From assembly GCA_048938855.1 (NCBI GenBank), contig JBHLLT010000002.1:384001-448000 (forward strand): a stretch of 64,000 nucleotides of DNA, read 5' to 3'. The notes under the pieces were generated by a model. That model was not told the origin of the DNA, did no database searches, and saw nothing but the letters and a program-made list of their open reading frames with translations. The translations under genes were made by a program, and so were the position numbers. Below are positions 9,937-26,625 of the stretch, in pieces. The stretch's first letter is position 1. Every line of letters begins with the position of its first letter. The DNA comes from Promethearchaeota archaeon. Lineage in GTDB: Archaea; Asgardarchaeota; Lokiarchaeia; Sigyniarchaeales; SOKP01.

Positions 9937-11361
9937 TTATTCTTCTGTTAAAATGTCTATGGCATTAAGAGCAGATTCACAAACATAATCACACCTATCG
10001 TGTACTAACCCATTTAAACTTGAAATTATTTCATCTGTGTTTATGCCAATCAATCCTAAAGCTTCTGATGCTCTCCATCTAACATCAGGATTTTCATCCT
10101 TAAGAGCTTTTATTAAAGATGGAATTACTTTATTTGAAATTGAGCCTAATTTTCCTAAAGAAAGTGCTGCAACACGTCTTACAATATATTTTGGGTCATT
10201 TAAAGCTTTAGCAAGAGCATAAACTGCCTCTTCTGAATTTAATCCAATCTCCCCTAATGCTCTAGCAACTTCTACTCTAAAAGATGCCTTTTTCGAAAAA
10301 GGATCTTTAAAAAATGTGTCCATTTTTTTTATAAATTTGTTTGTAAAAGTAGGAGATATATCTTTTTCTTGTTCCTGCATATAAAGATAGTCAATTAATA
10401 CTGGTACAGCTTCTTCAGCATCAATACTTATCCCTCTTAATGCAGAAATTATAATATTTCTCATATTGATATTTGATTTTTCTATTGCTTTAATTAAATA
10501 TGGCACAGCAATTTTACCAATATTCCTGAGAGCATCAGCAGCTTTTCCTCTAACAGCTTCAACTTTATCATTTAATAAATCTGCTACTCTTTCAATAATT
10601 TTTGGATCATTAACTTTCATCTCTCCTAAAGTTTCAACTGCTTTTTTCCTAACTGTATCACTCTTATGAGATAATATATCTAAGAGACTAGGAATAGCAG
10701 CCTCTCCAATATCACTTAAAGTGTTCGAAACTCGGTATCTTACTCTCCAATCGGGATCTTCAAGTGCAGTTATTAAATTTGGTATTGCCTTTGTAGATCC
10801 TCTTCCAATCTTGCTAATTGATTGAGCAGAGGCAGTTCTAACTTTCCAACTTACATCTTTAAGGCCATTCATTAAATGCGGAATTGCTTCATATGCATCT
10901 GTTCCGAGATCTCCAAGTGCTATCGCAACCTCAGCTCGCACAATTTCAGATTTGTCATCTAATGCATCTATTAATCCTGAAATTGCTTCATTAGTAGGTT
11001 CTCCAATACTCCCAATAGCGATTGCAGCCTCTTTTCTTATTGATTCTTCATTATCTGTTAACATTTTAGATAATTGAGGTATTGCATCGTTGGCAATTTT
11101 TCCTATTTTACCCATTGTTCTAGCAGCTTCACGACAAATACTCCAATCATTATCTTCTAAACACTCTTTCAACTTTGAAAGACCATTAACAGACTTTTGT
11201 CCCAATTCTCCTAATACAAGAATAGCATTAAATTTAACAGATCTAATTTCACTACCTAAATGGTTTATTACTTCATTTATAACAGCTTCATCTTTCTCGA
11301 TACGAGATAAAACTAGATCAATTCGAGCATCTCTTAATAAATGTTCCAAAGAAGCAGACAT
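9937..11361 (-). CDS. HEAT/PBS-lyase-type repeat protein
   Basis: About 12 repeats of L.D....VR..AA.ALG.IG; SD AAGGTGA upstream. Confidence 0.9.
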   Translation of the reverse strand: MSASLEHLLRDARIDLVLSRIEKDEAVINEVINHLGSEIRSVKFNAILVLGELGQKSVNGLSKLKECLEDNDWSICREAARTMGKIGKIANDAIPQLSKMLTDNEESIRKEAAIAIGSIGEPTNEAISGLIDALDDKSEIVRAEVAIALGDLGTDAYEAIPHLMNGLKDVSWKVRTASAQSISKIGRGSTKAIPNLITALEDPDWRVRYRVSNTLSDIGEAAIPSLLDILSHKSDTVRKKAVETLGEMKVNDPKIIERVADLLNDKVEAVRGKAADALRNIGKIAVPYLIKAIEKSNINMRNIIISALRGISIDAEEAVPVLIDYLYMQEQEKDISPTFTNKFIKKMDTFFKDPFSKKASFRVEVARALGEIGLNSEEAVYALAKALNDPKYIVRRVAALSLGKLGSISNKVIPSLIKALKDENPDVRWRASEALGLIGINTDEIISSLNGLVHDRCDYVCESALNAIDILTEE

Positions 11362-16349: not shown

Positions 16350-16545
16350 TTATTAGATCACTTCTTTAAAAAATTTTAATATATCATGTATGTTTATTTT
16401 TAGATTAACAAATATTAGTTCATTTTAACATATATTTAAAGTTTTCAACTTTTCATATTTGAAATCGGCTGATGTCAACAAAAATGTTTTAAAAAATAAA
16501 AAAAAAGATGTAAAATCTTGGACTTTTTGTAAAATCTTAGGCCTT

Positions 16546-19500
16546 TTATAGAACAATGTTCACAAAAATTTGAATTCCCACGATAATCCCTACAACTATA
16601 ACCAGTACTATGAATATTATAAGCGTGTAAAATCTCCACTTAATTGAGATATTTTCACTTCGTTCCTTAAATCTTATATAGGGCAATAATATCACCCCTA
16701 TAATCCAAATAGATATCCAAAAAGTAAATACATACCAAACAGGCGTTATAATCGCAAATAAAAGTACAATGATGCTTCCCCAACTAATTATTAACCGAAT
16801 AATACGACGTCTGAACCTTACATCAACATCATCAGTTTTTTTGGAGGGTAGAATAGCGTACATCATACCAAATATCGGAAAAATTAAAAGGATTGAATGT
16901 GTCCACCCTAAAAGATTTCCTACTGCTGGTGATATAGAGATACCGATTAAACTGGATATGAATACACTAAAAATTATCCAAAGAGTTTTATAATTTACTT
17001 TAATAAAATGGAAAATTTTAATAAACATATTCTTGATTGCTAACTGTATAGCTTTGAAGAATTTTGAGAGATACTCTACAATATTATTAATAAATCTTTT
17101 TAATTCCTCTAAAAGAAAGATAAATGGATAAAGTATAATACCAAAAATAATAAAAGTTATGCCTAAACCTAAGGATGAAGCACGATATACTATTATACAC
17201 AATAATGTGAATATCACTAACCAAAATATAAATGCCTTGGATACGAATTTTGAATGCTTTTTAAATGGTCTTACCTGGATTGTTAAAAATATAACAAAAA
17301 TAAGTAGACTGCTACTTATGTTTAAAGCTAAATCAAAATTTGGAACTCCTAAAAAACCTAAAAACAAATCAACTGACAGTAATGCCCCAATTACTAGAAA
17401 TGAGATAGATCTCAAAGATTTACGTAATTTCTCATTAACAATTTTATCTATAAGAGTTATTACAAACAATATAGATAACGATGCTAAGAATAAATTAAGG
17501 TTAGCAAAATGATTTGAACCAAGGAAATACAGGGGCCATGTAATAAAATTCAGATATGATATTATTATTAAACCTGACTTGATTTTCTTTTTATACGTAG
17601 CAACAACCTTCCAAAAACTCAATAATTTAAATAGATACGCGAACTCAAGAATTTGAATTATTACTATAATAGGAATTACTGTAAAAAAGAAACCACTAAA
17701 AAGTGTACTGTAAATCCAGATTAAGTATGTTGATGTAAAGATCATTATCATAATCCAAGAGAAGGATTTGACATAATCAGTTAGTTTTCCTAAGAATTTG
17801 AATAAAACACTATCTATTATCATTAAGATGTGAATTATAATACTCAAAATCAATAATATCAATTGTAAATTCAAGCCTACCAATATTAATGGTTGTACTA
17901 TAGAAAAACACAATGTAGCATAGAAGCCAATACCTAAAAGCCGGTGGATGTATTTTTGAGCCTTATCATAAGCTTCTTTTTTAACAGGGGAAGAGAGTTT
18001 TAACACTTTAAAGAAAGAATAATTTGTATAAAATTGCATTATCAAAAAGAAGAAGATTTCTAGACTAAGCAAGAAAAGAAATTGAGATACAAAGCTGTGT
18101 AAAAAGAGAAATAGATTTAACGATAATGCAAAATAACTAATTGTATGAACTAAACCCGCATAAATTATCTTTACTTTCTTTATAGAATAAATGTCTAATA
18201 GTGTTAAGACAAATAATATTGATAATGCCACCAATATACTTTCATAAACTCCTAAAAATGCACTTACTAAACCGTATACCATAATACTTATTTCAAAATA
18301 TAATATCAAAACCATAAATGAATGTATCTTTGATGAAAAGTCCGGATATTTTTGTTTTCCCCATATAATATCATAATATTTTATAGATACAAATGAAAGG
18401 CATATTTCTATAAAAATAATTAAATTAATAGAAATGAAGTTCAAAGAACCAAACAGTATGAATATATATGCCAAATTTACTGCAATTAATCCTTGAAATA
18501 CGATAAAAAGAATAAATTCGACTCTGTACTTTATATTTTTTTCGATTCTAACGAATAATAGACTGAAGAAATATAAAAAAAGAGAGGAATTCTGAAATAA
18601 TAAAGATAAGTATCCAAATCCCCTTAATTGGTCAAAAATAAGTACAAGTCCATTAGATATTAAAGATGCTATAAAAAATGAACTCCAGATGAAGGAATTA
18701 TAAATAAGTAATATCCTGAGCTTTGAAATTGTCTCTTTTGAAATCTTTAAGCGAGACATGAAATGAAGTGTAAGTAGATTTAGAACTGAAAATGTTAAAA
18801 CTAAGAGAAAAGGGTTCAAATGAAATAAATATATAAATAAAGAAAATGTATTACAGAAAATAAACCAACTCCATAGTGTAAATCTGTTTCGGGTTGAATC
18901 TATTAAAAATTTAAAAATACTCTTATCCATGAAAGCGACTTCAATAAATAGCATAATAGTTGACGATAATAGAACCAAATAGATTATAATTACTAAATTA
19001 AGATTGATAAAAACAAGATATAGGAAGATATTCATTCCGACGGCTATAGTAATAAAAAGATATAAAACACAGCTTAAGATGCTAAAATTACGTAATAAAC
19101 CTTTTAATTTTATATCCAGCTCTGACTTTATTATATATTTCATACAAATTAGGAATAAAAATGGCCATATGAATAGAAAATCAAAAATTTGATAAATAAT
19201 TATGATATCCGTAAATATTATTGACATAAATAGATTTGGTAAAATAATCGTGAGAAATAATGATATACATACTGAGTTTGTTAAGAAACATGTAAAATTA
19301 AGCCATTTTAATTGAGTTTTATCTTTGTAAATCTTAAATATACTATTTTTTATTTCTTCCGTATCATCTTCTACAGACCGCTTGAAAAGATTAATTAAAA
19401 TCTGAAAGGTAATAAGGTAAAGCATCGGCCATGATAAAAATGCAAAAATCCAATTAGAATAAATTAAATCAAGTGTCAATAACCATTCAATAATAGGAGA

Positions 19501-22500
19501 AATTATAGGTATTGGAATGACAAACCAAAGAATATATCGATATTCAACAAATATTTTGTAGAGAAAAATAATGAACACAGCAGAAAAGACAGTTATTAAT
19601 ATTCCAATTGGAGCATGAAATAAAATTGAGCTGAGAGAAGTTATTGATAAGGATGACCCAAGTGCTACAGCTAAATAGGGATATATTTTATTAAGACGTA
19701 ATCTCATCTTATAACGGTTAAATATAAAATAGGAGCATCCAAATACAGTAAGTCCTAATGATAACGCTAAAATTATAAATCCTAGAAAGAAATAAAAAGT
19801 GTTGAATGTCAGCCATGAGAAATTTATAATCAATATCCAAGAAAGGCATAAATCTATTATTCTTTTTGGCAACTTCAAGTATTTAGAAGAAAAGAGCGTA
19901 ACCCCAAATACCAATAGACTTAAGTTTACTGCAAAAATTATATGATGAATTACAGCATAGAGAATAAAATAGATTGTTAAGAAAATTCCTAATAAGGATA
20001 TGCTATATGCTGTTATCAAGACCAAGCCAATAGATCTAATATTTGGGAAGAAGGAGTATACTATTAAAAATATTCCAATAACTAAAATATCAAGAGAAAT
20101 CGTAATTTCTAAGGGGAGACCAATCGAAGTTAAATAAAACAATAAAAATGAAACATTCATAAATGTCATTGGAAATAACCAAAAGATTGAAACTATTTTC
20201 CAAAATTTAAATAACATTAATAAAGGCATCAAAAGAGTGGCTGAAAACATAATAAAAAACAAATTTCTTAGAACAAGATCCGCTACAAATAAATTCTGAC
20301 TAAACCAATAAAGTAAAAATAAACTTTCACCCCAAATTGTAAAAACAATTATAGAAAAGTATTTCTTAATTTTACTATACACCACTGGTATGAAAAATAA
20401 AGAGCAAATTATGAGAGATAAAAAGAAAGAACCCCCAAATTCAAGAGTTCCAATACTCCATAGTTCTGTGGTAAAGATATCTATTCCTGTTAAACTTTGG
20501 TAGATTATATACCAATTTATTATAGGTAGAATGTTCCACATGTACCACCCTGATTTCCAAATCGCCCAAGATACTTTCCATTGGTAAATTCCAATAGATA
20601 GATAAAATAGAAAGACGCCAAAATTAATAGAAACTATTAAGGGAACTATAGACAATAGCGGCATTGATAGAGCTGCAATTATTAGAAAATATATAAATGT
20701 TGGAAAAGAAATAACAATTGAGATTAATACAATATAAAATGATTTCTTTCTAAATCTTGCAGGAGCGTTATTATATAAAAGAACAAACGCAAATCCTGTC
20801 ATACTCAAAGTTAATGTAAACGTTAAAATTGGGTTGAATTCACTAAATATAGGGCCACTAAATAGCACAAAATACGACATAAAGCTGATGAAATCAAATA
20901 CAAATAGAATTACACATGGATTTATAAACCATTTATAGCGTTCATCCTCTTTACGATAAAATGAGATTCCCAAAAATAGCAAAAACAAGAAAAGAGATAT
21001 TGTTATGTTATAAAGAAGTAAAATATTTGTAAATAAGCTTAGATAGATAAAAGATAGGGTTGAGATGAGAAAATATAATGAAAATTTTTCAAAAGTATTA
21101 TTTCTTTTTATATTTAATAATATCGAGAAAAATAAAACTCCACTTAGGGATAGAGGATAATTTATAGCAAATAAACCTATTAGATCAATATTATAAGCAG
21201 TTATAACCTCATAAAAGGTTAAAACAACAAGAACATCAACAATAATAACATAACTCAATAAGAAATAAGTTATAAACCTATAAATGGGAAAAATATTTCT
21301 TTTAGTAAGAATAAATATGGCTACTATTACAATAAGAATTGGTGAGAAAAATAAACCAAAATAAAGAAGGCTTGTTGACAATATGATTGATAAAATATAA
21401 AAACCAAACAATCTTAAATTAGCTTCTTCTTCGACTATTTTATTAAATTTTGAAAAGAAATAAAATATAATCAAGATCGGAGTAATTATAAGAGTGGATA
21501 TATGAAGACTAGGGTTAAAAGAGAAAATAGGGATTTGAGGTGTCAAATTAAAAAGAATTTCAAGGTATATGCTCAATAATGATATCATAAATACTATTAC
21601 TGTTACTTTTTTCAATGCTAGTTGATTTTTAACTGAGATATATTTCAAATTCTTTAAAACATAAAGACTAAGAGGAGTAAAGAAGGCAAACGTTAAACAA
21701 AATAATGTAATTACGTTCAAAATAAAGAATTGATATATAAAATAATTGAGTATCGAAGTTAACAAAATGCAAATTACACTCTTAACCATTAGCCATGTAC
21801 ATAACTGAATAATTGTCTTAAGTTGTGTAAATCTCATTTCACTTAGACTATTCAAGAAAATAAGTGATAAAAGAATAATGATGAAAAAAAATCCAATCCA
21901 AGTTGATCCACTAATTAAAACTGGTAACGTGTTCAGAAAAGTAAAAAGATTAAGAGAGATGATTAAAAATGTAAAAATAGAGGATATTGAGATAATTAAA
22001 CCATAAATTGGTATATCTATAAATTTACTTAAATTTGGTAATTTAGTAATTACTTTTGAGGCGAAACTTATCGTATATATACTTAGAGTAAAAAAGACAA
22101 AAAAACAGCAGCTCAATATTAAATAAGTAAATGGAGTCAATTCAATCGTAGTGATAAAGATTGAAGCAATATAATAAGATACAAATAATGTGAAAGAAAA
22201 CCAAGTGATTAATCCCACTGTTTTGAAACTCTTGATGTAAATACTTTTTAATTTAATTTTTGTACTAATAAATTCAGAAACCCTCAAAAAACAAAATAGT
22301 AAAAATAATGTTATTGTAATTATTAGGATATAATTTGGTAATAATCCAATTCTTACTAGCTCTAATCCAATTATTGTAGGTATAGAGATAATTAAGGCAG
22401 ATAGAGCAAGAAAGTTATAGATTGTTAACTTTTTAATTAAATCTAAGTTGAAATATTCTCTTTTATAAGAATAATAGAATAGTAAAAACCATGAAATAAG

Positions 22501-25107
22501 TAAAGTGATTAACGGTAAGACATACGCATATAAAGTTCCACTTAATAGGAACCATGGGTAGTAGAATACTGTTGTAAAGCTTATACAAAATCCAACAATC
22601 ACACGTGATTTCAGAAAGAAATTAACAGTTTTTTCTTTACATTCTAATTTTTTTAATGAATAATAGTAAACACTTAAAATTATAAAAAGAATATATAAAG
22701 TAAAATTAATTACTGTCATTATTAAGAGAATTAAATCAAAATATAGGCCTAAATTATATATATCTAACCCTATAAAAGTGGGAATCACTGTTAATGTTGC
22801 AGATAATATTACACTGTTTACTTTAATTGCGCTAATTGCAAAGGTAGGATATATCTGTTTCTTTCTTAGATAGATAACAGGCAAAAAGAAGACTAAAGTA
22901 GAGACCAAAAGTGGGAGATTAAAAACAAATATTGTATTCAATGTTAGCCTTAAAAATAAGTAAAATACTATTAATACGCTATATAGCAAAACAAAAACAT
23001 TTATTTTAATGTAAAAGTCTTCAGAAAAAATCCATCTTTTTGAGATAAGGTTAATTAATACGCAAACTGAAGCTAATGATGAAAATATTGAATATAGTGC
23101 ATTATCAAACAAAGGGAGACTATGAAATACTGAAAAAAATAATGTATAGAATAAATATAAAAGTTCGATGGTTATCAAATATGAATTTATTTTAACATAT
23201 TTCTTAAACCTGGATTCTTTCACGCGATCTAAATTCACGCCAAATTTTATAATAAAATAATAGAAAACTGAGGTAATAAGGAAATCAAATGCTAATAGAA
23301 TAAAAATTGCAGAAAGCAAAGAGATAATAAGTAGAGATATGAATAAATCACTTAATAGTATCCAAAGAGCAAAATAAGTATATTTTAAGAAATATTCTTT
23401 AGGAAAAATATGTAGAACATTATTTAAATAGAGAAAAGCAATAAAAACGATTGGAAAGCAAATTAACGAGATACATAATACTTGTAAAAACGGAATGAAC
23501 TCGATTAAGTAGTAGAATCTAAAATTAACAAATACAAATAGAATTAGTTCGATTAATAAACTATTCACTAATACAATCCTTCTAAATAATTTAGGACTCT
23601 TTACATTGAAATATCTAATACCAAGTATATAGTTGGAAATTAGTAAGGTTATTAGAATAAATATTGAGTGTAAGAGAATGTTTGAAACTAAAATCACAAC
23701 GGGAGGATCTGAGGGAAATGTAGTAGATTCAATGATCATTGGAAAGAATATATATAATACTAAGCAAAAACTTGCGACAGCAAGTAAATTTTGGAAAATG
23801 ATAACTTCATCTTTAGCAAAATATTTTAGTTTAACGAAAATTTGTAAAACAAAATATAGAGCGATTGTAAGTATTAGGAAATTTATTAATATCGTCTGTA
23901 TGGATGATGGAATTATTCCAAATGAGATAGCGACTAAAATTGCTATCGAATTTAATAAGCCTGCAAATTTATTATACTTTTTTGAACATAGACCTGCCTT
24001 CTGTTCATAATGAAGCAGAAAATAGATGAATGGTAGAACTATTAAAATTATTAGAGGAACTCTTGTTGAAAAGGAATATAAAGAAATTAATATAATCAAA
24101 ATGCTAGAGAGAACTGAATTGTATTTTTGATATTTTACATATCCTAATTGAGTTTTTTCATTGGAAGTTTCTTCCCTTTCAGAATTATTATATATCGATA
24201 ACTTTGAAGTGAAATGAAAACCAATATAAAACCTGGATTTAAAATAAAACAAAACAAAAATTATAACCAAGAAAAGATTATTTATTACTTCTAAACTCAA
24301 AAATGGAATTCCCGAAATAACTCGTGCAGAAATTGTAATAAGAGGTATTTCGATTAAAAGAATAAAAATTAAGCCTATTTGAGTGTCTACTAATCGCCGT
24401 TTAAAGATTGTCAGGGATTTAAGTATAACTTTTTTTTCTTTTATAGATTCGCGAATAGATTTTACCTGAGTCTTTGTACTTGTAAAGGTAATAATATAGA
24501 AAATTATATTTGTTAAAAGAGCAAAAAGCCAAGCAAAATTAGTAGGTGCTAGAAAGGATAAAAAGAAAATATGGATCACATAATTTAGGAAAACAAGGAA
24601 ATTGTAAGGTTGTTTAATCATCAATTCGGTACTCTTAGCATGTTTAAACTCGCTTTCTTTTAAATCAAAATAATCTATAGGTTGGAAATGATAATAATAA
24701 TAAACGATATTATAGAGAAACGCATAACTAATAAGTGGAAGGTAAATAAATGAGTCATATGGTGAAATAAGGATAAATATGGGAGTTGTGATAAATGATA
24801 CAACGGAAATCAGATATAATACATGAATTCGTGCCCCTAGATTATTTGTTTTATTTAGAAAAAAGGGATTATCTCTATATTTGTCATAAGCTTTATAAAA
24901 AAATAGCAACGAAAACATAAACCCGACAATTGAGAAAGATAATGAAATGAATAATCCAACACTGGCAAAATTAAAAATAGCAAAAATTGCGATTGCTACT
25001 ATTAATGGAGCAATAATTAAAAAGAAGGCAAACCACCATGATTTATGGAGCACTTCAGTTGCCTTTCTAATTCTCTCTTGCGAGTTATCACTACTTTTTG
25101 ATTTCAT
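16546..25107 (-). CDS. Giant (2853-aa) polytopic membrane protein of unknown function
   Basis: Uninterrupted 8.5-kb ORF of I/L/F-rich helices separated by short K-rich loops; GGTGGG SD-like sequence before the ATG. Confidence 0.85.
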   Translation of the reverse strand: MKSKSSDNSQERIRKATEVLHKSWWFAFFLIIAPLIVAIAIFAIFNFASVGLFISLSFSIVGFMFSLLFFYKAYDKYRDNPFFLNKTNNLGARIHVLYLISVVSFITTPIFILISPYDSFIYLPLISYAFLYNIVYYYYHFQPIDYFDLKESEFKHAKSTELMIKQPYNFLVFLNYVIHIFFLSFLAPTNFAWLFALLTNIIFYIITFTSTKTQVKSIRESIKEKKVILKSLTIFKRRLVDTQIGLIFILLIEIPLITISARVISGIPFLSLEVINNLFLVIIFVLFYFKSRFYIGFHFTSKLSIYNNSEREETSNEKTQLGYVKYQKYNSVLSSILIILISLYSFSTRVPLIILIVLPFIYFLLHYEQKAGLCSKKYNKFAGLLNSIAILVAISFGIIPSSIQTILINFLILTIALYFVLQIFVKLKYFAKDEVIIFQNLLAVASFCLVLYIFFPMIIESTTFPSDPPVVILVSNILLHSIFILITLLISNYILGIRYFNVKSPKLFRRIVLVNSLLIELILFVFVNFRFYYLIEFIPFLQVLCISLICFPIVFIAFLYLNNVLHIFPKEYFLKYTYFALWILLSDLFISLLIISLLSAIFILLAFDFLITSVFYYFIIKFGVNLDRVKESRFKKYVKINSYLITIELLYLFYTLFFSVFHSLPLFDNALYSIFSSLASVCVLINLISKRWIFSEDFYIKINVFVLLYSVLIVFYLFLRLTLNTIFVFNLPLLVSTLVFFLPVIYLRKKQIYPTFAISAIKVNSVILSATLTVIPTFIGLDIYNLGLYFDLILLIMTVINFTLYILFIILSVYYYSLKKLECKEKTVNFFLKSRVIVGFCISFTTVFYYPWFLLSGTLYAYVLPLITLLISWFLLFYYSYKREYFNLDLIKKLTIYNFLALSALIISIPTIIGLELVRIGLLPNYILIITITLFLLFCFLRVSEFISTKIKLKSIYIKSFKTVGLITWFSFTLFVSYYIASIFITTIELTPFTYLILSCCFFVFFTLSIYTISFASKVITKLPNLSKFIDIPIYGLIISISSIFTFLIISLNLFTFLNTLPVLISGSTWIGFFFIIILLSLIFLNSLSEMRFTQLKTIIQLCTWLMVKSVICILLTSILNYFIYQFFILNVITLFCLTFAFFTPLSLYVLKNLKYISVKNQLALKKVTVIVFMISLLSIYLEILFNLTPQIPIFSFNPSLHISTLIITPILIIFYFFSKFNKIVEEEANLRLFGFYILSIILSTSLLYFGLFFSPILIVIVAIFILTKRNIFPIYRFITYFLLSYVIIVDVLVVLTFYEVITAYNIDLIGLFAINYPLSLSGVLFFSILLNIKRNNTFEKFSLYFLISTLSFIYLSLFTNILLLYNITISLFLFLLFLGISFYRKEDERYKWFINPCVILFVFDFISFMSYFVLFSGPIFSEFNPILTFTLTLSMTGFAFVLLYNNAPARFRKKSFYIVLISIVISFPTFIYFLIIAALSMPLLSIVPLIVSINFGVFLFYLSIGIYQWKVSWAIWKSGWYMWNILPIINWYIIYQSLTGIDIFTTELWSIGTLEFGGSFFLSLIICSLFFIPVVYSKIKKYFSIIVFTIWGESLFLLYWFSQNLFVADLVLRNLFFIMFSATLLMPLLMLFKFWKIVSIFWLFPMTFMNVSFLLFYLTSIGLPLEITISLDILVIGIFLIVYSFFPNIRSIGLVLITAYSISLLGIFLTIYFILYAVIHHIIFAVNLSLLVFGVTLFSSKYLKLPKRIIDLCLSWILIINFSWLTFNTFYFFLGFIILALSLGLTVFGCSYFIFNRYKMRLRLNKIYPYLAVALGSSLSITSLSSILFHAPIGILITVFSAVFIIFLYKIFVEYRYILWFVIPIPIISPIIEWLLTLDLIYSNWIFAFLSWPMLYLITFQILINLFKRSVEDDTEEIKNSIFKIYKDKTQLKWLNFTCFLTNSVCISLFLTIILPNLFMSIIFTDIIIIYQIFDFLFIWPFLFLICMKYIIKSELDIKLKGLLRNFSILSCVLYLFITIAVGMNIFLYLVFINLNLVIIIYLVLLSSTIMLFIEVAFMDKSIFKFLIDSTRNRFTLWSWFIFCNTFSLFIYLFHLNPFLLVLTFSVLNLLTLHFMSRLKISKETISKLRILLIYNSFIWSSFFIASLISNGLVLIFDQLRGFGYLSLLFQNSSLFLYFFSLLFVRIEKNIKYRVEFILFIVFQGLIAVNLAYIFILFGSLNFISINLIIFIEICLSFVSIKYYDIIWGKQKYPDFSSKIHSFMVLILYFEISIMVYGLVSAFLGVYESILVALSILFVLTLLDIYSIKKVKIIYAGLVHTISYFALSLNLFLFLHSFVSQFLFLLSLEIFFFLIMQFYTNYSFFKVLKLSSPVKKEAYDKAQKYIHRLLGIGFYATLCFSIVQPLILVGLNLQLILLILSIIIHILMIIDSVLFKFLGKLTDYVKSFSWIMIMIFTSTYLIWIYSTLFSGFFFTVIPIIVIIQILEFAYLFKLLSFWKVVATYKKKIKSGLIIISYLNFITWPLYFLGSNHFANLNLFLASLSILFVITLIDKIVNEKLRKSLRSISFLVIGALLSVDLFLGFLGVPNFDLALNISSSLLIFVIFLTIQVRPFKKHSKFVSKAFIFWLVIFTLLCIIVYRASSLGLGITFIIFGIILYPFIFLLEELKRFINNIVEYLSKFFKAIQLAIKNMFIKIFHFIKVNYKTLWIIFSVFISSLIGISISPAVGNLLGWTHSILLIFPIFGMMYAILPSKKTDDVDVRFRRRIIRLIISWGSIIVLLFAIITPVWYVFTFWISIWIIGVILLPYIRFKERSENISIKWRFYTLIIFIVLVIVVGIIVGIQIFVNIVL

Positions 25108-25302
25108 CGCCCACCACGATTTTTATTATACGTTGAGATTAATAATAATTTTGGTTTATAAATTTTTCAGAATTATCTTTACAAATATATTTTACTAATG
25201 TGTTAAGACCACTTAAAAGGTTTTGTCACTTATGCTAGTAGAACCTATAAAAATAGTAGTAAATCGTTTATTAAGGTGGTAGTAAATTTAAAATTAGTTT
25301 AA

Positions 25303-26625
25303 TTATCTAAAATTTGGTAAATAATTTTTTTGAACTTCCATCATATCATTAAATATCTTTTCTGCCATTTCAAAATTACCTACATTAGGATCAATAGCCA
25401 AACTTGCAATTGCTAATTCTTTCGATTCTTTTAGAACTGCTTCAACACATAAATCTTGAACTGATGCTTCGATACGAAGTAAAGCAGCAATATTTTTAGG
25501 TAATGATCCTACTCTGATGCCACTAATCCCATTTCTATTGACAATCGCTGAGCATTCTAAAATTAAATCATTTGGCAAATTATCAACTATATTATCATTA
25601 GGGATGTTTACTGCCGTCTCATACGAATTCGTATCATTAATTAAAGCTTCAATAATTGGAATAGCGCGTTCTCCTGAGGGGACACTATATAAGATTCCTT
25701 TTTTCGGAAATCTTCCTTCTTTTAGTTTTTTATAATATATAAGATACCTTTTATATCGCAGATCTCCTTCTTTTTCAATAAAATTTAGCCAATCTAACAT
25801 ATCTTGAGTCTTAGTGAATTCTTCTCCAAATTGGAGATATTCTCCTAAATGATTATCACCTACATAGGGAAAAAATCCAAATCTTTTATAAACTTCAAAT
25901 GTAAGCTTGGAAAACTCAAATTTATGTTCTGTAGTACTGAAATAATTCATAGCTTTATTATTAAATTCAGGCATCAAATCTTTACCAGTTATTAAGTCTT
26001 CAAGACTAATCAAAAATGCAAAATGATTTAATCCATTTGTTTTCATCTTTAATTCATCTATAGATTTATTAAATAATATAGGTAAATGCCGTACCATAAA
26101 TCCAATTTGATGGCATAATCCAACAAATTTTAGAATTTCTGTACTTCTTTTAATTGCTAAGCAAACTCGAGACACTGGATTAGAAAAATTAATAAAAAAT
26201 GCATTAGGACAAATTTTTTCAACATCTTTAACAATCTCTATAATGGGGGGAATTATTCTCCAGGAATGAAATGTACCCCCTGGTCCCCCACACTCACCCA
26301 GAATCTGGGTGGATCCATATTTTCTTGGGACCTCATAATCTTGACGCCATAATTTCATTCTATCTCCAATTTCTATTGAATTAATTATGAAATTGGCATC
26401 CTTTAGTGCTTTAACTCTGTTAGTTGTCCTTTCAAGAAACATTTTATTTTTATGAAGTTCATTTTCAGCGACTAAAAGATCATAAATCATTTCCAATTTA
26501 TCTTTATTAATATCATGAAGAACGACTGTAGACCCTTCCAAAACATCACTTAAATATATATCATTGAACATATGTCTTCCAAATGATGCCGAACCCGCTC
26601 CAATCAACACTATCTTTTTATTCAT
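25303..26625 (-). CDS. Glycoside hydrolase family 4 (NAD+/Mn-dependent alpha-galactosidase/glucosidase)
   Basis: IGAGSASF, GECGGPGG, INFSNP, VGLCH, GLNHF. Confidence 0.92.
   Translation of the reverse strand: MNKKIVLIGAGSASFGRHMFNDIYLSDVLEGSTVVLHDINKDKLEMIYDLLVAENELHKNKMFLERTTNRVKALKDANFIINSIEIGDRMKLWRQDYEVPRKYGSTQILGECGGPGGTFHSWRIIPPIIEIVKDVEKICPNAFFINFSNPVSRVCLAIKRSTEILKFVGLCHQIGFMVRHLPILFNKSIDELKMKTNGLNHFAFLISLEDLITGKDLMPEFNNKAMNYFSTTEHKFEFSKLTFEVYKRFGFFPYVGDNHLGEYLQFGEEFTKTQDMLDWLNFIEKEGDLRYKRYLIYYKKLKEGRFPKKGILYSVPSGERAIPIIEALINDTNSYETAVNIPNDNIVDNLPNDLILECSAIVNRNGISGIRVGSLPKNIAALLRIEASVQDLCVEAVLKESKELAIASLAIDPNVGNFEMAEKIFNDMMEVQKNYLPNFR

What the first reader, a model, noticed from the sequence alone, without database searches (positions are those of the whole stretch)
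16546..25107. 2853-aa protein made almost entirely of transmembrane helices
Seen: no soluble domain anywhere. Hydrophobic 20-25-aa segments alternate with short basic loops over the whole length (rough visual estimate 75-85 TM helices). Intramembrane Glu recurs (LLIEIP, LLIELI, ITIELL, IYLEIL, IFIEIC, LYFEIS), there is one Trp-rich segment (YQWKVSWAIWKSGWYMWN) and a long amphipathic helix near the C-terminus (LEELKRFINNIVEYLSKFFK). Known: Piezo, a benchmark for polytopic proteins, has 38 TM per chain. Inference: a repeat-built membrane sheet or solenoid that could shape or sense membrane curvature, relevant to Asgard protrusions.
Basis: partly seen in the sequence, partly recalled or inferred. 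Interest (0 to 1): 0.75.

Follow-up and report, generated by a model that had tools for sequence, protein, structure and literature searches.

The report
Giant ~85-helix Lokiarchaeial membrane protein
This is a real, conserved gene of Loki-type Asgard archaea whose single 2,853-residue protein crosses the membrane about 80-90 times as a fixed central hub between two arms of repeated four-helix blocks; it has no known relative, fold or function, but cultured species carry and transcribe it, so it can be studied.

Summary
The ORF at 16546-25107 (-) is intact and encodes 2,853 aa (334 kDa) with no soluble domain: 79 hydropathy windows and about 86-90 helices extrapolated from AlphaFold2. A shuffled chain already gives 61±3 windows, so the stronger evidence is charge segregation, positive-inside alternation and confident models.

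It belongs to an undescribed family confined to one Asgard class, almost entirely one order. The hub profile matched 118 of 400 phylum genomes and none in about 245 genomes of 28 other families. It is mostly single-copy.

Orthologues include MK-D1 DSAG12_00898 (3,940 aa, RPKM 152) and two Lokiarchaeum ossiferum copies (3,146 and 4,908 aa).

The architecture is N head, N arm, a 651-670-aa hub, C arm and C tail. The arms vary from 518 to 2,097 aa, the N arm in steps of about 133 aa, built from four-helix repeat units.

Pfam, NCBIfam, PDB sequence profiles, a profile search of 1.84 billion proteins, Foldseek and VIA-align found nothing outside the family.

The function is untested. My best guess (about 0.35) is an in-membrane scaffold or strip. 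Channel and lipid-handling roles remain open.

This scan has already found the family on at least ten other genomes.

The parts
16546..25107 (-). Whole coding sequence, 2853 codons plus TAA stop (16546-16548)
   Evidence: Single copy in its own genome. 114 homologues, from E=0 to 1e-144.
23308..25107 (-). N head plus N1 module (res 1-600). The cytoplasmic N-terminus is basic. Res 1-300 is absent or variable in some orthologues; res 301-600 is conserved.
21301..23307 (-). N arm (res 601-1269): about 20 helices in four-helix units of about 133 aa. Arm length varies among orthologues from 518 to 1339 aa.
   Evidence: Repeats. AF2 model md46f2bd8b246 has pLDDT 81.8 and 20 long helices. K/R alternation. 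Arm lengths.
22204..22998 (-). Best-defined tandem repeat pair: res 704-838 and 837-968
   Evidence: hhalign score 125-127, probability 98.7%, E about 3e-16. Reversed-profile control maximum is 31.4. A unit HMM re-finds the neighbouring units.
19318..21300 (-). Central hub (res 1270-1930): the most conserved part, non-repetitive, about 22 helices and one small extracellular beta-hairpin. Length is constant (651-670 aa, one of 705) in 46 orthologues.
   Evidence: Profile search finds only family members.
20044..20559 (-). Deeply conserved signature (res 1517-1688): W1517, W1524, P1528, N1531, I1535, G1559, S1560, P1574, W1592, W1601, N1605, F1607, P1628, W1636, W1643, F1654, G1678, P1688. It contains no conserved charged residue.
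   Evidence: These positions are kept in 6-7 of 7 distant homologues (25-30% identity), including those of MK-D1 and L. ossiferum.
20533..20586 (-). Trp ladder (res 1508-1525): W at 1510, 1514, 1517, 1521 and 1524, spaced 4-3-4-3, so all lie on one helix face
17248..19317 (-). C arm (res 1931-2620): repeat units at offsets of about 127/254/380 aa. Arm length varies among orthologues from 554 to 2097 aa.
   Evidence: res 1996-2120 against 2250-2363, score 91, 97%. Arm lengths. Unit duplication in L082.
16549..17247 (-). C tail module (res 2621-2853), constant at 219-255 aa. It includes the strongly amphipathic helix at res ~2665-2690 (window 17038-17115) and the conserved last cytoplasmic loop (E2815, K2823, R2825).
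25108..25165 (-). Candidate own promoter and ribosome-binding region: GTGGTGG (25111-25117) lies 4 nt before the ATG, and TTTATAAA sits about 50 nt upstream
   Evidence: Read from the sequence. Not tested.
16491..16545 (-). Candidate terminator region: two copies of AAGATTTTACA (16528-16538 and 16509-16519), then a T-run (16491-16506)
   Evidence: Read from the sequence. Not tested.

Best explanation
What it is (shown, about 0.95). This is an intact, monocistronic gene. It encodes a 334-kDa polytopic membrane protein of an undescribed family confined to Lokiarchaeia, almost entirely one order. The chain is a long series of helical hairpins, about 80-90 membrane helices in all. Turns on one face are tight and uncharged. 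On the other face, taken as cytoplasmic by the positive-inside rule, the helices extend into basic segments. The chain has five parts: an N head, an N arm of four-helix repeat units, a non-repetitive hub of about 660 aa, a C arm of repeat units, and a C tail of about 230 aa. Hub and tail keep a constant length, whereas the arms gain and lose blocks between species.

How it most likely works (inferred, about 0.35). It acts as a structural element inside the bilayer rather than as a solute transporter or enzyme. The hairpin arms would occupy and stiffen or organise a strip of membrane whose length is tuned by unit number. The hub would be the site of self-association or of lipid or partner contact, through its mid-membrane Trp/Pro/Asn signature. 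The basic cytoplasmic segments and the C-terminal amphipathic helix would lie against the inner leaflet or meet cytoplasmic partners. Whether the outcome is curvature generation, curvature or tension sensing, or delimiting a membrane domain cannot be told from sequence.
For: - ORF intact and single-copy.
- 114 homologues of 1570-3754 aa in the protein search; giant ORFs in closed genomes reach 4,920 aa. All named ones are called hypothetical.
- Phyletic range: the hub profile hits f1 101/134, f3 12/14, f2 1/1, f4 2/4 and f5 1/3 genomes, and none of about 245 genomes in 28 other families (single-sequence version).
- Topology: K/R alternation and charge-free hairpin runs well above shuffles.
- AF2 models: pLDDT 79 and 82, 79-85% helix, loops of 1-10 residues.
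- Repeats.
- Constant hub and tail with arms that vary stepwise.
- Tolerance of large changes in arm length fits a spacer or scaffold better than a catalytic or transport cycle.
- The 21 hub positions kept across the order are W, P, N, G, F, S, I and L, with no Asp, Glu, Lys, Arg or His. This argues against enzymes and ion-coupled transporters.
- No transporter, channel or enzyme family or fold matched.
- The weak Foldseek neighbours of both models are elongated alpha-solenoids, not compact transporter bundles.
- No conserved operon partner across the order.
- The MK-D1 orthologue is transcribed: RPKM 152 in Imachi et al. 2020, Supplementary Table 3 (PMC7015854).
Against: - No experiment or context bears on function.
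- I could not inspect model coordinates, so 'extended strip' rests on indirect evidence: solenoid-like weak hits and hairpin topology.
- The hub has proline-broken helices (res ~1857-1884) and two invariant mid-membrane Asn, which would also suit a channel or a lipid groove.
- The arms carry conserved membrane-embedded carboxylates (E520, E648, E916, E2272, D2305, D2432, D2554). A pure scaffold does not obviously need these.
- Several near-complete genomes of the same family lack the gene: g7 0/2, g10 0/1, and g11 with 8 of 10 lacking. So it is not a universal structural requirement.
Confidence: 0.35

Rival explanations
1. Lipid-handling protein: a lipid or lysolipid sink, a scramblase, or a membrane-homeostasis factor. 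The many helices and the mid-membrane Trp/Asn sites would bind or redistribute lipids. It would be functionally analogous to bacterial Arc3A (DUF2339).
For: Arc3A is a protein with 35 predicted TM segments and no catalytic residues. Its family has varying TM numbers, and it prevents lysophospholipid accumulation (eLife 2022, PMC8926400). DUF2339 was the nearest named cluster in the ESM Atlas, but at a chance-level 0.79. Deeply conserved mid-membrane Trp, Asn and Pro without charges would suit lipid contacts. One L. ossiferum paralogue lies divergent to a PlsC-type acyltransferase, and the MK-D1 orthologue follows a flotillin gene. These are single cases only.
Against: PF10101 does not match the protein (no Pfam hit at E<=1) or any frame of the genome (none at E<=10). 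The lipid-related neighbours are not conserved. No lipid-binding fold was detected.
Confidence: 0.2
2. Piezo-like mechanosensitive (or other) channel. Hubs of several chains would form a pore, and the arms of four-helix units would act as curvature- or tension-sensing blades.
For: The arms are built from four-helix units, as Piezo blades are (Piezo architecture from my own knowledge; units shown). The hub is conserved and has proline-broken helices and invariant Asn. There are conserved intramembrane carboxylates and a strongly amphipathic helix near the C-terminus.
Against: No Piezo Pfam domain. Piezo is not among the best 50 Foldseek or VIA-align rows for either model. The conserved module is central and flanked by two arms, not a C-terminal pore module. 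There is no cap or other extramembrane domain, the longest polar stretch being about 59 aa. No charged residue is conserved in the hub across the order.
Confidence: 0.15
3. A divergent transporter, ion-translocating membrane arm (complex I/Mrp-like) or membrane enzyme (for example a GT-C-like glycosyltransferase or polymerase) whose homology is hidden by divergence and biased composition.
Against: No Pfam or NCBIfam hit at E<=1. No PDB profile hit at E<=10. Only family members appeared among 1.84 billion representatives. The fold rows are at the level expected for any helical bundle (notes). No charged residue is conserved in the hub. GH4 adjacency is lost in the more distant family f3. Arms that change by hundreds of residues are hard to reconcile with a defined transport cycle.
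Confidence: 0.08
4. Artefact: a chance ORF in AT-rich DNA, or a mis-assembly joining several genes.
For: The gene has 25-26% GC with a T-rich coding strand. Composition alone yields about 61 hydrophobic windows.
Against: An 8.5-kb open frame in DNA rich in stop-codon letters. Collinear full-length orthologues at 30-88% identity on dozens of contigs and in closed genomes. A 54%-GC orthologue. Transcription in MK-D1.
Confidence: 0.01

Closest known systems
Uncharacterised orthologues in cultured or closed Lokiarchaeia: Promethearchaeum syntrophicum MK-D1 DSAG12_00898 (QEE15075.1, 3,940 aa); Ca. Lokiarchaeum ossiferum NEF87_002906 (UYP46621.1, 3,146 aa) plus a 4,908-aa second copy; Ca. Harpocratesius repetitus MCF2139232.1 (4,296 aa)
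   Same: Same family. The hub aligns at 25-30% identity (profile E 1e-50 to 1e-67). The N module, central hub and C tail come in the same order, and 21 hub positions are kept. All are nearly pure helix arrays with 79-115 hydropathy windows.
   Different: Their arms are much longer (N arm up to 1,339 aa, C arm up to 2,097 aa) and no longer align with the arms here. Their neighbouring genes differ. All are annotated only as hypothetical proteins, and I found no paper that discusses them.
Piezo1/Piezo2 mechanosensitive channels
   Same: Very large polytopic chains whose peripheral parts are tandem four-helix units (own knowledge for Piezo; here).
   Different: No sequence or detectable fold relation. 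This protein has two arms around a central hub instead of one blade leading to a C-terminal pore. It has no cap or other soluble domain and more than twice as many helices per chain. It is found only in Lokiarchaeia.
Arc3A / DUF2339 (PF10101), e.g. Pseudomonas aeruginosa PA5114
   Same: A large protein made of many TM segments, with variable TM number across species and no evident catalytic residues. It has an experimentally shown membrane-protective role (PMC8926400). It is the best available functional analogy for a protein that is nearly all membrane helices.
   Different: PF10101 does not match. Arc3A has about 35 TM segments and is bacterial. It often has an Arc3B partner, which has no counterpart here.
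Omnitrophota giant membrane-anchored proteins (bioRxiv 10.64898/2026.06.07.730766)
   Same: Prokaryotic giants with very many predicted TM helices, up to 147.
   Different: In those proteins the helices are a small part of chains of up to 147,155 aa that lie mostly outside the membrane. Here almost the entire chain is membrane helix, about one per 33 residues.

Membership tests
Undescribed Lokiarchaeial giant hairpin-array family (orthologues of DSAG12_00898) | Central hub of about 660 aa with the W1517/W1524/P1528/N1531 ... W1636/W1643/F1654/P1688 signature | tested here: met
   The hub profile (A2) scores E 3e-279 on this gene and 1e-18 to 1e-292 on 117 other genomes. The signature is kept in distant members.
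Undescribed Lokiarchaeial giant hairpin-array family (orthologues of DSAG12_00898) | Order of parts: N module, variable arm, hub, variable arm, C tail of about 230 aa | tested here: met
   Section HMMs map in this order in 46 orthologues. Hub is 651-705 aa and tail 219-255 aa.
Piezo channels | Sequence match to Piezo Pfam domains | tested here: not met
   No Pfam-A family at E<=1 for the whole protein. None for the 4,297- and 4,920-aa ORFs of the distant homologues (L077, L078).
Piezo channels | Fold similarity of the arms to Piezo blade four-helix units | tested here: inconclusive
Piezo channels | C-terminal pore module with a large extracellular cap domain | tested here: not met
   The longest stretch between hydrophobic windows is 59 aa. 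The conserved module is central. The C tail is about 230 aa of helices.
Piezo channels | Homotrimeric propeller assembly and mechanically gated conductance | not testable with these tools
   Needs a structure of the oligomer and electrophysiology.
DUF2339 / Arc3A (PF10101) | Match to the PF10101 profile | tested here: not met
   No hit in hmmscan at E<=1. No six-frame hit at E<=10 in the whole genome, while the control genomes did give hits.
DUF2339 / Arc3A (PF10101) | Protection against phospholipase-induced lysolipid accumulation | not testable with these tools
   Phenotype known only for bacteria (PMC8926400).
Known transporter, channel or membrane-enzyme families (MFS, RND/MmpL, ABC, complex I/Mrp antiporter-like, GT-C and others) | Any curated family or solved-structure sequence match | tested here: not met
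   Pfam 0, NCBIfam 0. PDB profile search of the hub gave 0 hits at E<=10. The exhaustive profile search returned family members only.
Known transporter, channel or membrane-enzyme families (MFS, RND/MmpL, ABC, complex I/Mrp antiporter-like, GT-C and others) | Fold match of hub or arm to a solved membrane protein | tested here: inconclusive

The most novel reading that the evidence does not exclude
The family is a new class of membrane machine: a single-chain, in-plane 'membrane solenoid'. Its species-specific arm length would set or sense the geometry (curvature, width or tension) of the thin protrusions and blebs typical of Lokiarchaeia. It would be an archaeal, protein-only answer to what reticulons, Piezo blades or flotillin scaffolds do in eukaryotes.
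Probability: 0.15. Interest if true: 0.92.

Novelty: categorically new. Interest (0 to 1): 0.72.

Why it matters
A protein of 80-130 membrane helices with almost nothing outside the bilayer is at the edge of what is known for polytopic proteins. It raises questions about how such a chain is inserted and folded by the archaeal Sec/YidC machinery.

The family is confined to the Asgard lineage that includes the only well-studied cultured relatives of eukaryotes, whose hallmark is elaborate membrane protrusions. It is one of the largest genes in these genomes, yet it is annotated only as hypothetical.

MK-D1 and L. ossiferum carry orthologues, and the MK-D1 copy is transcribed. Its location and role can therefore be tested directly by proteomics, cryo-ET and reconstitution.

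The hub-plus-stretchable-arms design, with arms that change in four-helix steps, is also a natural system for studying how membrane proteins grow by repeat accretion.

Tried and rejected
- Self-BLASTP with composition correction found no internal repeat. Profile-profile comparison was needed.
- Pfam and NCBIfam on this protein gave nothing. Pfam on the 4,297- and 4,920-aa ORFs of the distant homologues (L077, L078) also gave nothing.
- A PDB sequence-profile search with the hub gave nothing at E<=10.
- An exhaustive profile search of 1.84 billion representatives gave 54 hits, all family members or fragments.
- ESM Atlas: recognition was low, the best score was 0.87 to unnamed clusters, and DUF2339 scored 0.79. 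No lead came of it.
- Foldseek against PDB and VIA-align wide, run on both models, gave only generic helical hairpins, bundles and soluble solenoids. No Piezo, transporter or GT-C fold stood out.
- PF10101 searched against the genome gave nothing.
- Operon partner. The order GH4 glycosidase, aminotransferase, giant gene, Liv-type ABC importer is conserved within the close family: GH4 in 36 of 40 loci and the binding protein in 26 of 49. It is absent around the distant orthologues, so I read it as inherited gene order, not a functional link.
- Default hmmsearch missed the distant orthologues until the bias filters were switched off.
- hmmalign of the C tail and N1 module to the distant orthologues looked out of register, so I drew no conclusion on residue conservation there.
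- Literature searches for a description of the family or its locus tags found none.
- The MK-D1 glycoproteomics paper has no supplement held as text, so I found no evidence at protein level.
- I could not read model coordinates, so overall shape, buried charges and cavities were not examined.
Full report
**1. The observation**

The window holds one open frame at 16546..25107 on the minus strand: 2,853 codons, starting with ATG. The product is 334 kDa, pI 9.5, GRAVY 1.14, and 44.5% Leu+Ile+Phe. A simple hydropathy scan gives 79 non-overlapping 19-residue windows at Kyte-Doolittle >=1.6. The longest gap between them is 59 residues, so there is no room for a soluble domain. The C-terminal helix he noted (res ~2665-2690) has the largest helical hydrophobic moment in the chain.

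**2. Is the helix count more than composition?**

The raw count is weak evidence. Shuffled copies of the sequence give 61 +/- 3.2 such windows, maximum 69 of 200. Three things carry the claim instead.
- Charges are segregated. There are 18 runs of >=40 residues without D/E/K/R, against 2.6 +/- 1.4 in shuffles (max 7). K/R density autocorrelates at a lag of about 60 residues, which is one hairpin.
- Loops alternate strictly. Between residues 607 and 1250, ten loops hold 42 Lys/Arg and the nine loops between them hold one. This is what the positive-inside rule predicts for a row of hairpins with tight outer turns.
- AlphaFold2 models of two 660-670-residue pieces, built on alignments of 55 and 42 orthologues, are confident (pLDDT 79 and 82, pTM 0.66 and 0.60). 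They show 22 and 20 long helices joined by loops of 1-10 residues. Scaled to the chain, that is about 86-90 helices.

A homologue with 54% GC still has 71 hydrophobic windows, so AT-richness is not the cause.

**3. The gene is real and conserved**

A search of 5.8 billion protein clusters returned 114 homologues of 1,570-3,754 residues, from E=0 to 1e-144. All carried Asgard-type labels apart from one MAG filed as Nanopelagicaceae. All were named hypothetical or 'membrane protein of unknown function', and none had a Pfam domain. Seventy-five genomic loci were recovered from GTDB species genomes. The gene is single-copy in its own genome, which is 3.95 Mb and 97% complete.

A hub profile searched in 400 genomes of the phylum hit 118. 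By family the counts were 101/134 in the window's own family, 12/14, 1/1 and 2/4 in three other families of the same order, and 1/3 in another order of the class. There were no hits in about 245 genomes of 28 further families (single-sequence version).

Some near-complete genomes of the same family lack it: g7 0/2, g10 0/1, and 8 of 10 in g11. It has therefore been lost repeatedly and is not indispensable.

**4. Orthologues in cultured species**

Exact look-ups named several orthologues:
- DSAG12_00898 (QEE15075.1, 3,940 aa) of Promethearchaeum syntrophicum MK-D1.
- NEF87_002906 (UYP46621.1, 3,146 aa) of Ca. Lokiarchaeum ossiferum, which also has a 4,908-aa second copy.
- MCF2139232.1 (4,296 aa) of Ca. 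Harpocratesius repetitus.

These giant ORFs have 79-115 hydrophobic windows. In Supplementary Table 3 of Imachi et al. 2020 (PMC7015854), DSAG12_00898 has RPKM 152, with neighbours at 203-317. The gene is therefore transcribed in culture. I found no evidence at protein level, and no paper that mentions the family or these locus tags.

**5. Architecture**

Conservation along 90 full-length orthologues peaks at residues ~1300-1900. Profile-profile self-comparison, with reversed profiles as a control (maximum score 31-33), shows two repeat arrays.
- N arm: residues 704-838 match 837-968 (score 125, 98.7%). Residues 631-770 match 754-904, and 771-910 match 905-1042. The period is about 133 residues, or four helices.
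- C arm: residues 1996-2120 match 2250-2363 (score 91, 97%), with weaker matches at offsets of about 127 and 380.
- The two arms resemble each other only marginally (score 39).
- The hub shows no repeat.

Section HMMs were mapped on 46 orthologues:

| Part | Length across orthologues |
|---|---|
| Hub | 651-670 aa (one of 705) |
| C tail | 219-255 aa |
| N arm | 518-1,339 aa, clustering at about 527, 670, 804, 903 and 937 |
| C arm | 554-2,097 aa, clustering at about 693, 869 and 945 |

So there is a fixed hub and fixed ends, with two arms that grow and shrink by helix blocks. One orthologue shows three or four tandem copies of a single C-arm unit.

**6. What is conserved**

Within the close family, several membrane-embedded carboxylates are kept. 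E520, E648, E916, E2272, D/E2305, D2432 and D2554 are acidic in 88-100% of sequences.

Across the whole order the picture differs. Of 80 hub positions that are >=90% conserved in the close family, 21 survive in at least 6 of 7 distant orthologues. They are W1517, W1524, P1528, N1531, I1535, G1559, S1560, P1574, W1592, W1601, N1605, F1607, P1628, W1636, W1643, F1654, G1678 and P1688, plus F1404, F1416 and L1428. None of them is Asp, Glu, Lys, Arg or His.

By the AF2 helix boundaries, several of these Trp, Pro and Asn residues lie mid-helix, and so mid-membrane. The Trp-rich segment places five Trp at 4-3-4-3 spacing on one helix face.

**7. No relative, no fold**

- Pfam and NCBIfam: no hit at E<=1.
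- PDB sequence profile: none at E<=10.
- A profile search that reads all 1.84 billion representatives gave 54 hits, all members or fragments of this family.
- Foldseek against the PDB: best E 0.28 (hub) and 0.083 (arm), TM-scores <=0.2. The top rows are long soluble TPR/HEAT solenoids.
- Piezo does not appear in the best 50 rows of any list.
- ESM Atlas gave no usable neighbour.

**8. Context**

The gene has its own Shine-Dalgarno-like GTGGTGG and a TATA-like box upstream, and a T-run after the stop. Its neighbours are a GH4 glycosidase and an aminotransferase upstream, and a Liv-type ABC importer and a HEAT-repeat protein downstream.

This order is conserved within the close family: GH4 in 36 of 40 loci with enough flank, and the binding protein in 26 of 49. 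Around the distant orthologues the neighbours are different and mutually unrelated. They are flotillin and an amidohydrolase in MK-D1, histidine biosynthesis and a GNAT gene (or a PlsC-type acyltransferase) in L. ossiferum, and an alpha-amylase family gene and a PhoU-domain gene in Harpocratesius. I conclude there is no conserved partner gene.

**9. Mechanism**

What is shown is a membrane-embedded row of helical hairpins. It has a constant hub and ends, arms of variable length, basic cytoplasmic extensions and almost nothing outside the bilayer.

What is inferred, at about 0.35, is that it works as a structure within the membrane. The arms would occupy and organise a strip of bilayer whose length is set by unit number, and the hub would be the contact or assembly site. 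Three points favour this:
- The arms tolerate changes of hundreds of residues.
- No conserved charge survives in the hub.
- There is no resemblance to compact transporter folds.

Three points count against it:
- Proline-broken helices and invariant Asn in the hub would also suit a pore or lipid groove.
- The arms carry conserved carboxylates.
- The gene has been lost in some genera.

The rivals are a lipid-handling role analogous to Arc3A (0.2), a Piezo-like or other channel (0.15), a hidden transporter or enzyme (0.08) and an artefact (0.01). The remainder is something not yet imagined.

**10. Novelty and standing**

The family is real, undescribed in the searchable literature, and without a detectable sequence or fold relative. 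I class it as categorically new, with the caveat that its function is unknown. The claim of no known fold also rests on two partial models whose coordinates I could not inspect.

This scan has already reported the same family on at least ten other genomes. I re-tested four of those notes' points on this copy:
- the hub-and-arms layout;
- the MK-D1 and L. ossiferum orthologues;
- transcription in MK-D1;
- the shuffle caveat.

- The order-wide conserved hub set contains no charged residue.
- Arm lengths across 46 orthologues fall into clusters, spaced about 133 aa apart in the N arm.
- PF10101 gave a negative result against the whole genome.
- The gene is absent from some near-complete genomes of the same family.

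Noticed in passing
window 16491-16545 (-): Directly after the stop codon lie two copies of AAGATTTTACA, 19 nt apart, followed by a 16-nt T-rich run. This could be a terminator or a small regulatory repeat.
   Followed up: no
window 25303-26625 (-) and loci L001-L075: A family-4 glycoside hydrolase gene sits about 100-1,200 bp (median about 200 bp) upstream on the same strand in 36 of 40 close orthologous loci. An aminotransferase gene lies before it in 37 loci. The adjacency is lost in the MK-D1/L. ossiferum family.
   Followed up: partly
window 9937-11361 (-): A 474-aa protein made of HEAT/Armadillo repeats (HEAT_2 E 6e-66, also Adaptin_N and Cnd1-like hits) ends the Liv-type ABC importer cluster. 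It is conserved at this place in about 25 loci.
   Followed up: no
L080:1707-2939 (+), MK-D1: The gene directly upstream of the MK-D1 orthologue, on the same strand, is an SPFH/Band-7 flotillin-like protein (DSAG12_00897, RPKM 284). A membrane-microdomain scaffold next to the giant is suggestive, but it is seen in this one genome only.
   Followed up: partly
L079:3601-4569 (-), L. ossiferum: A PlsC-type acyltransferase (PF01553, E 7e-32) is transcribed divergently from the 3,146-aa L. ossiferum copy. This is a single case.
   Followed up: no
G138 (L. ossiferum) C1:3431772-3433349 and C1:3672778-3674424: L. ossiferum carries two paralogues (3,146 and 4,908 aa), whereas nearly all other genomes have one copy.
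   Followed up: partly
tallies (genera g7, g10, g11 of the window's family): Several 92-99% complete genomes of the same family have no match to the hub profile, so the gene has been lost in whole genera.
   Followed up: partly
L053 / P0104: One homologue sits on a contig deposited as 'Candidatus Nanopelagicaceae bacterium' (DATKTW010000160.1). Given 36-44% identity to the Lokiarchaeial proteins, this is probably a mis-binned Asgard contig.
   Followed up: no
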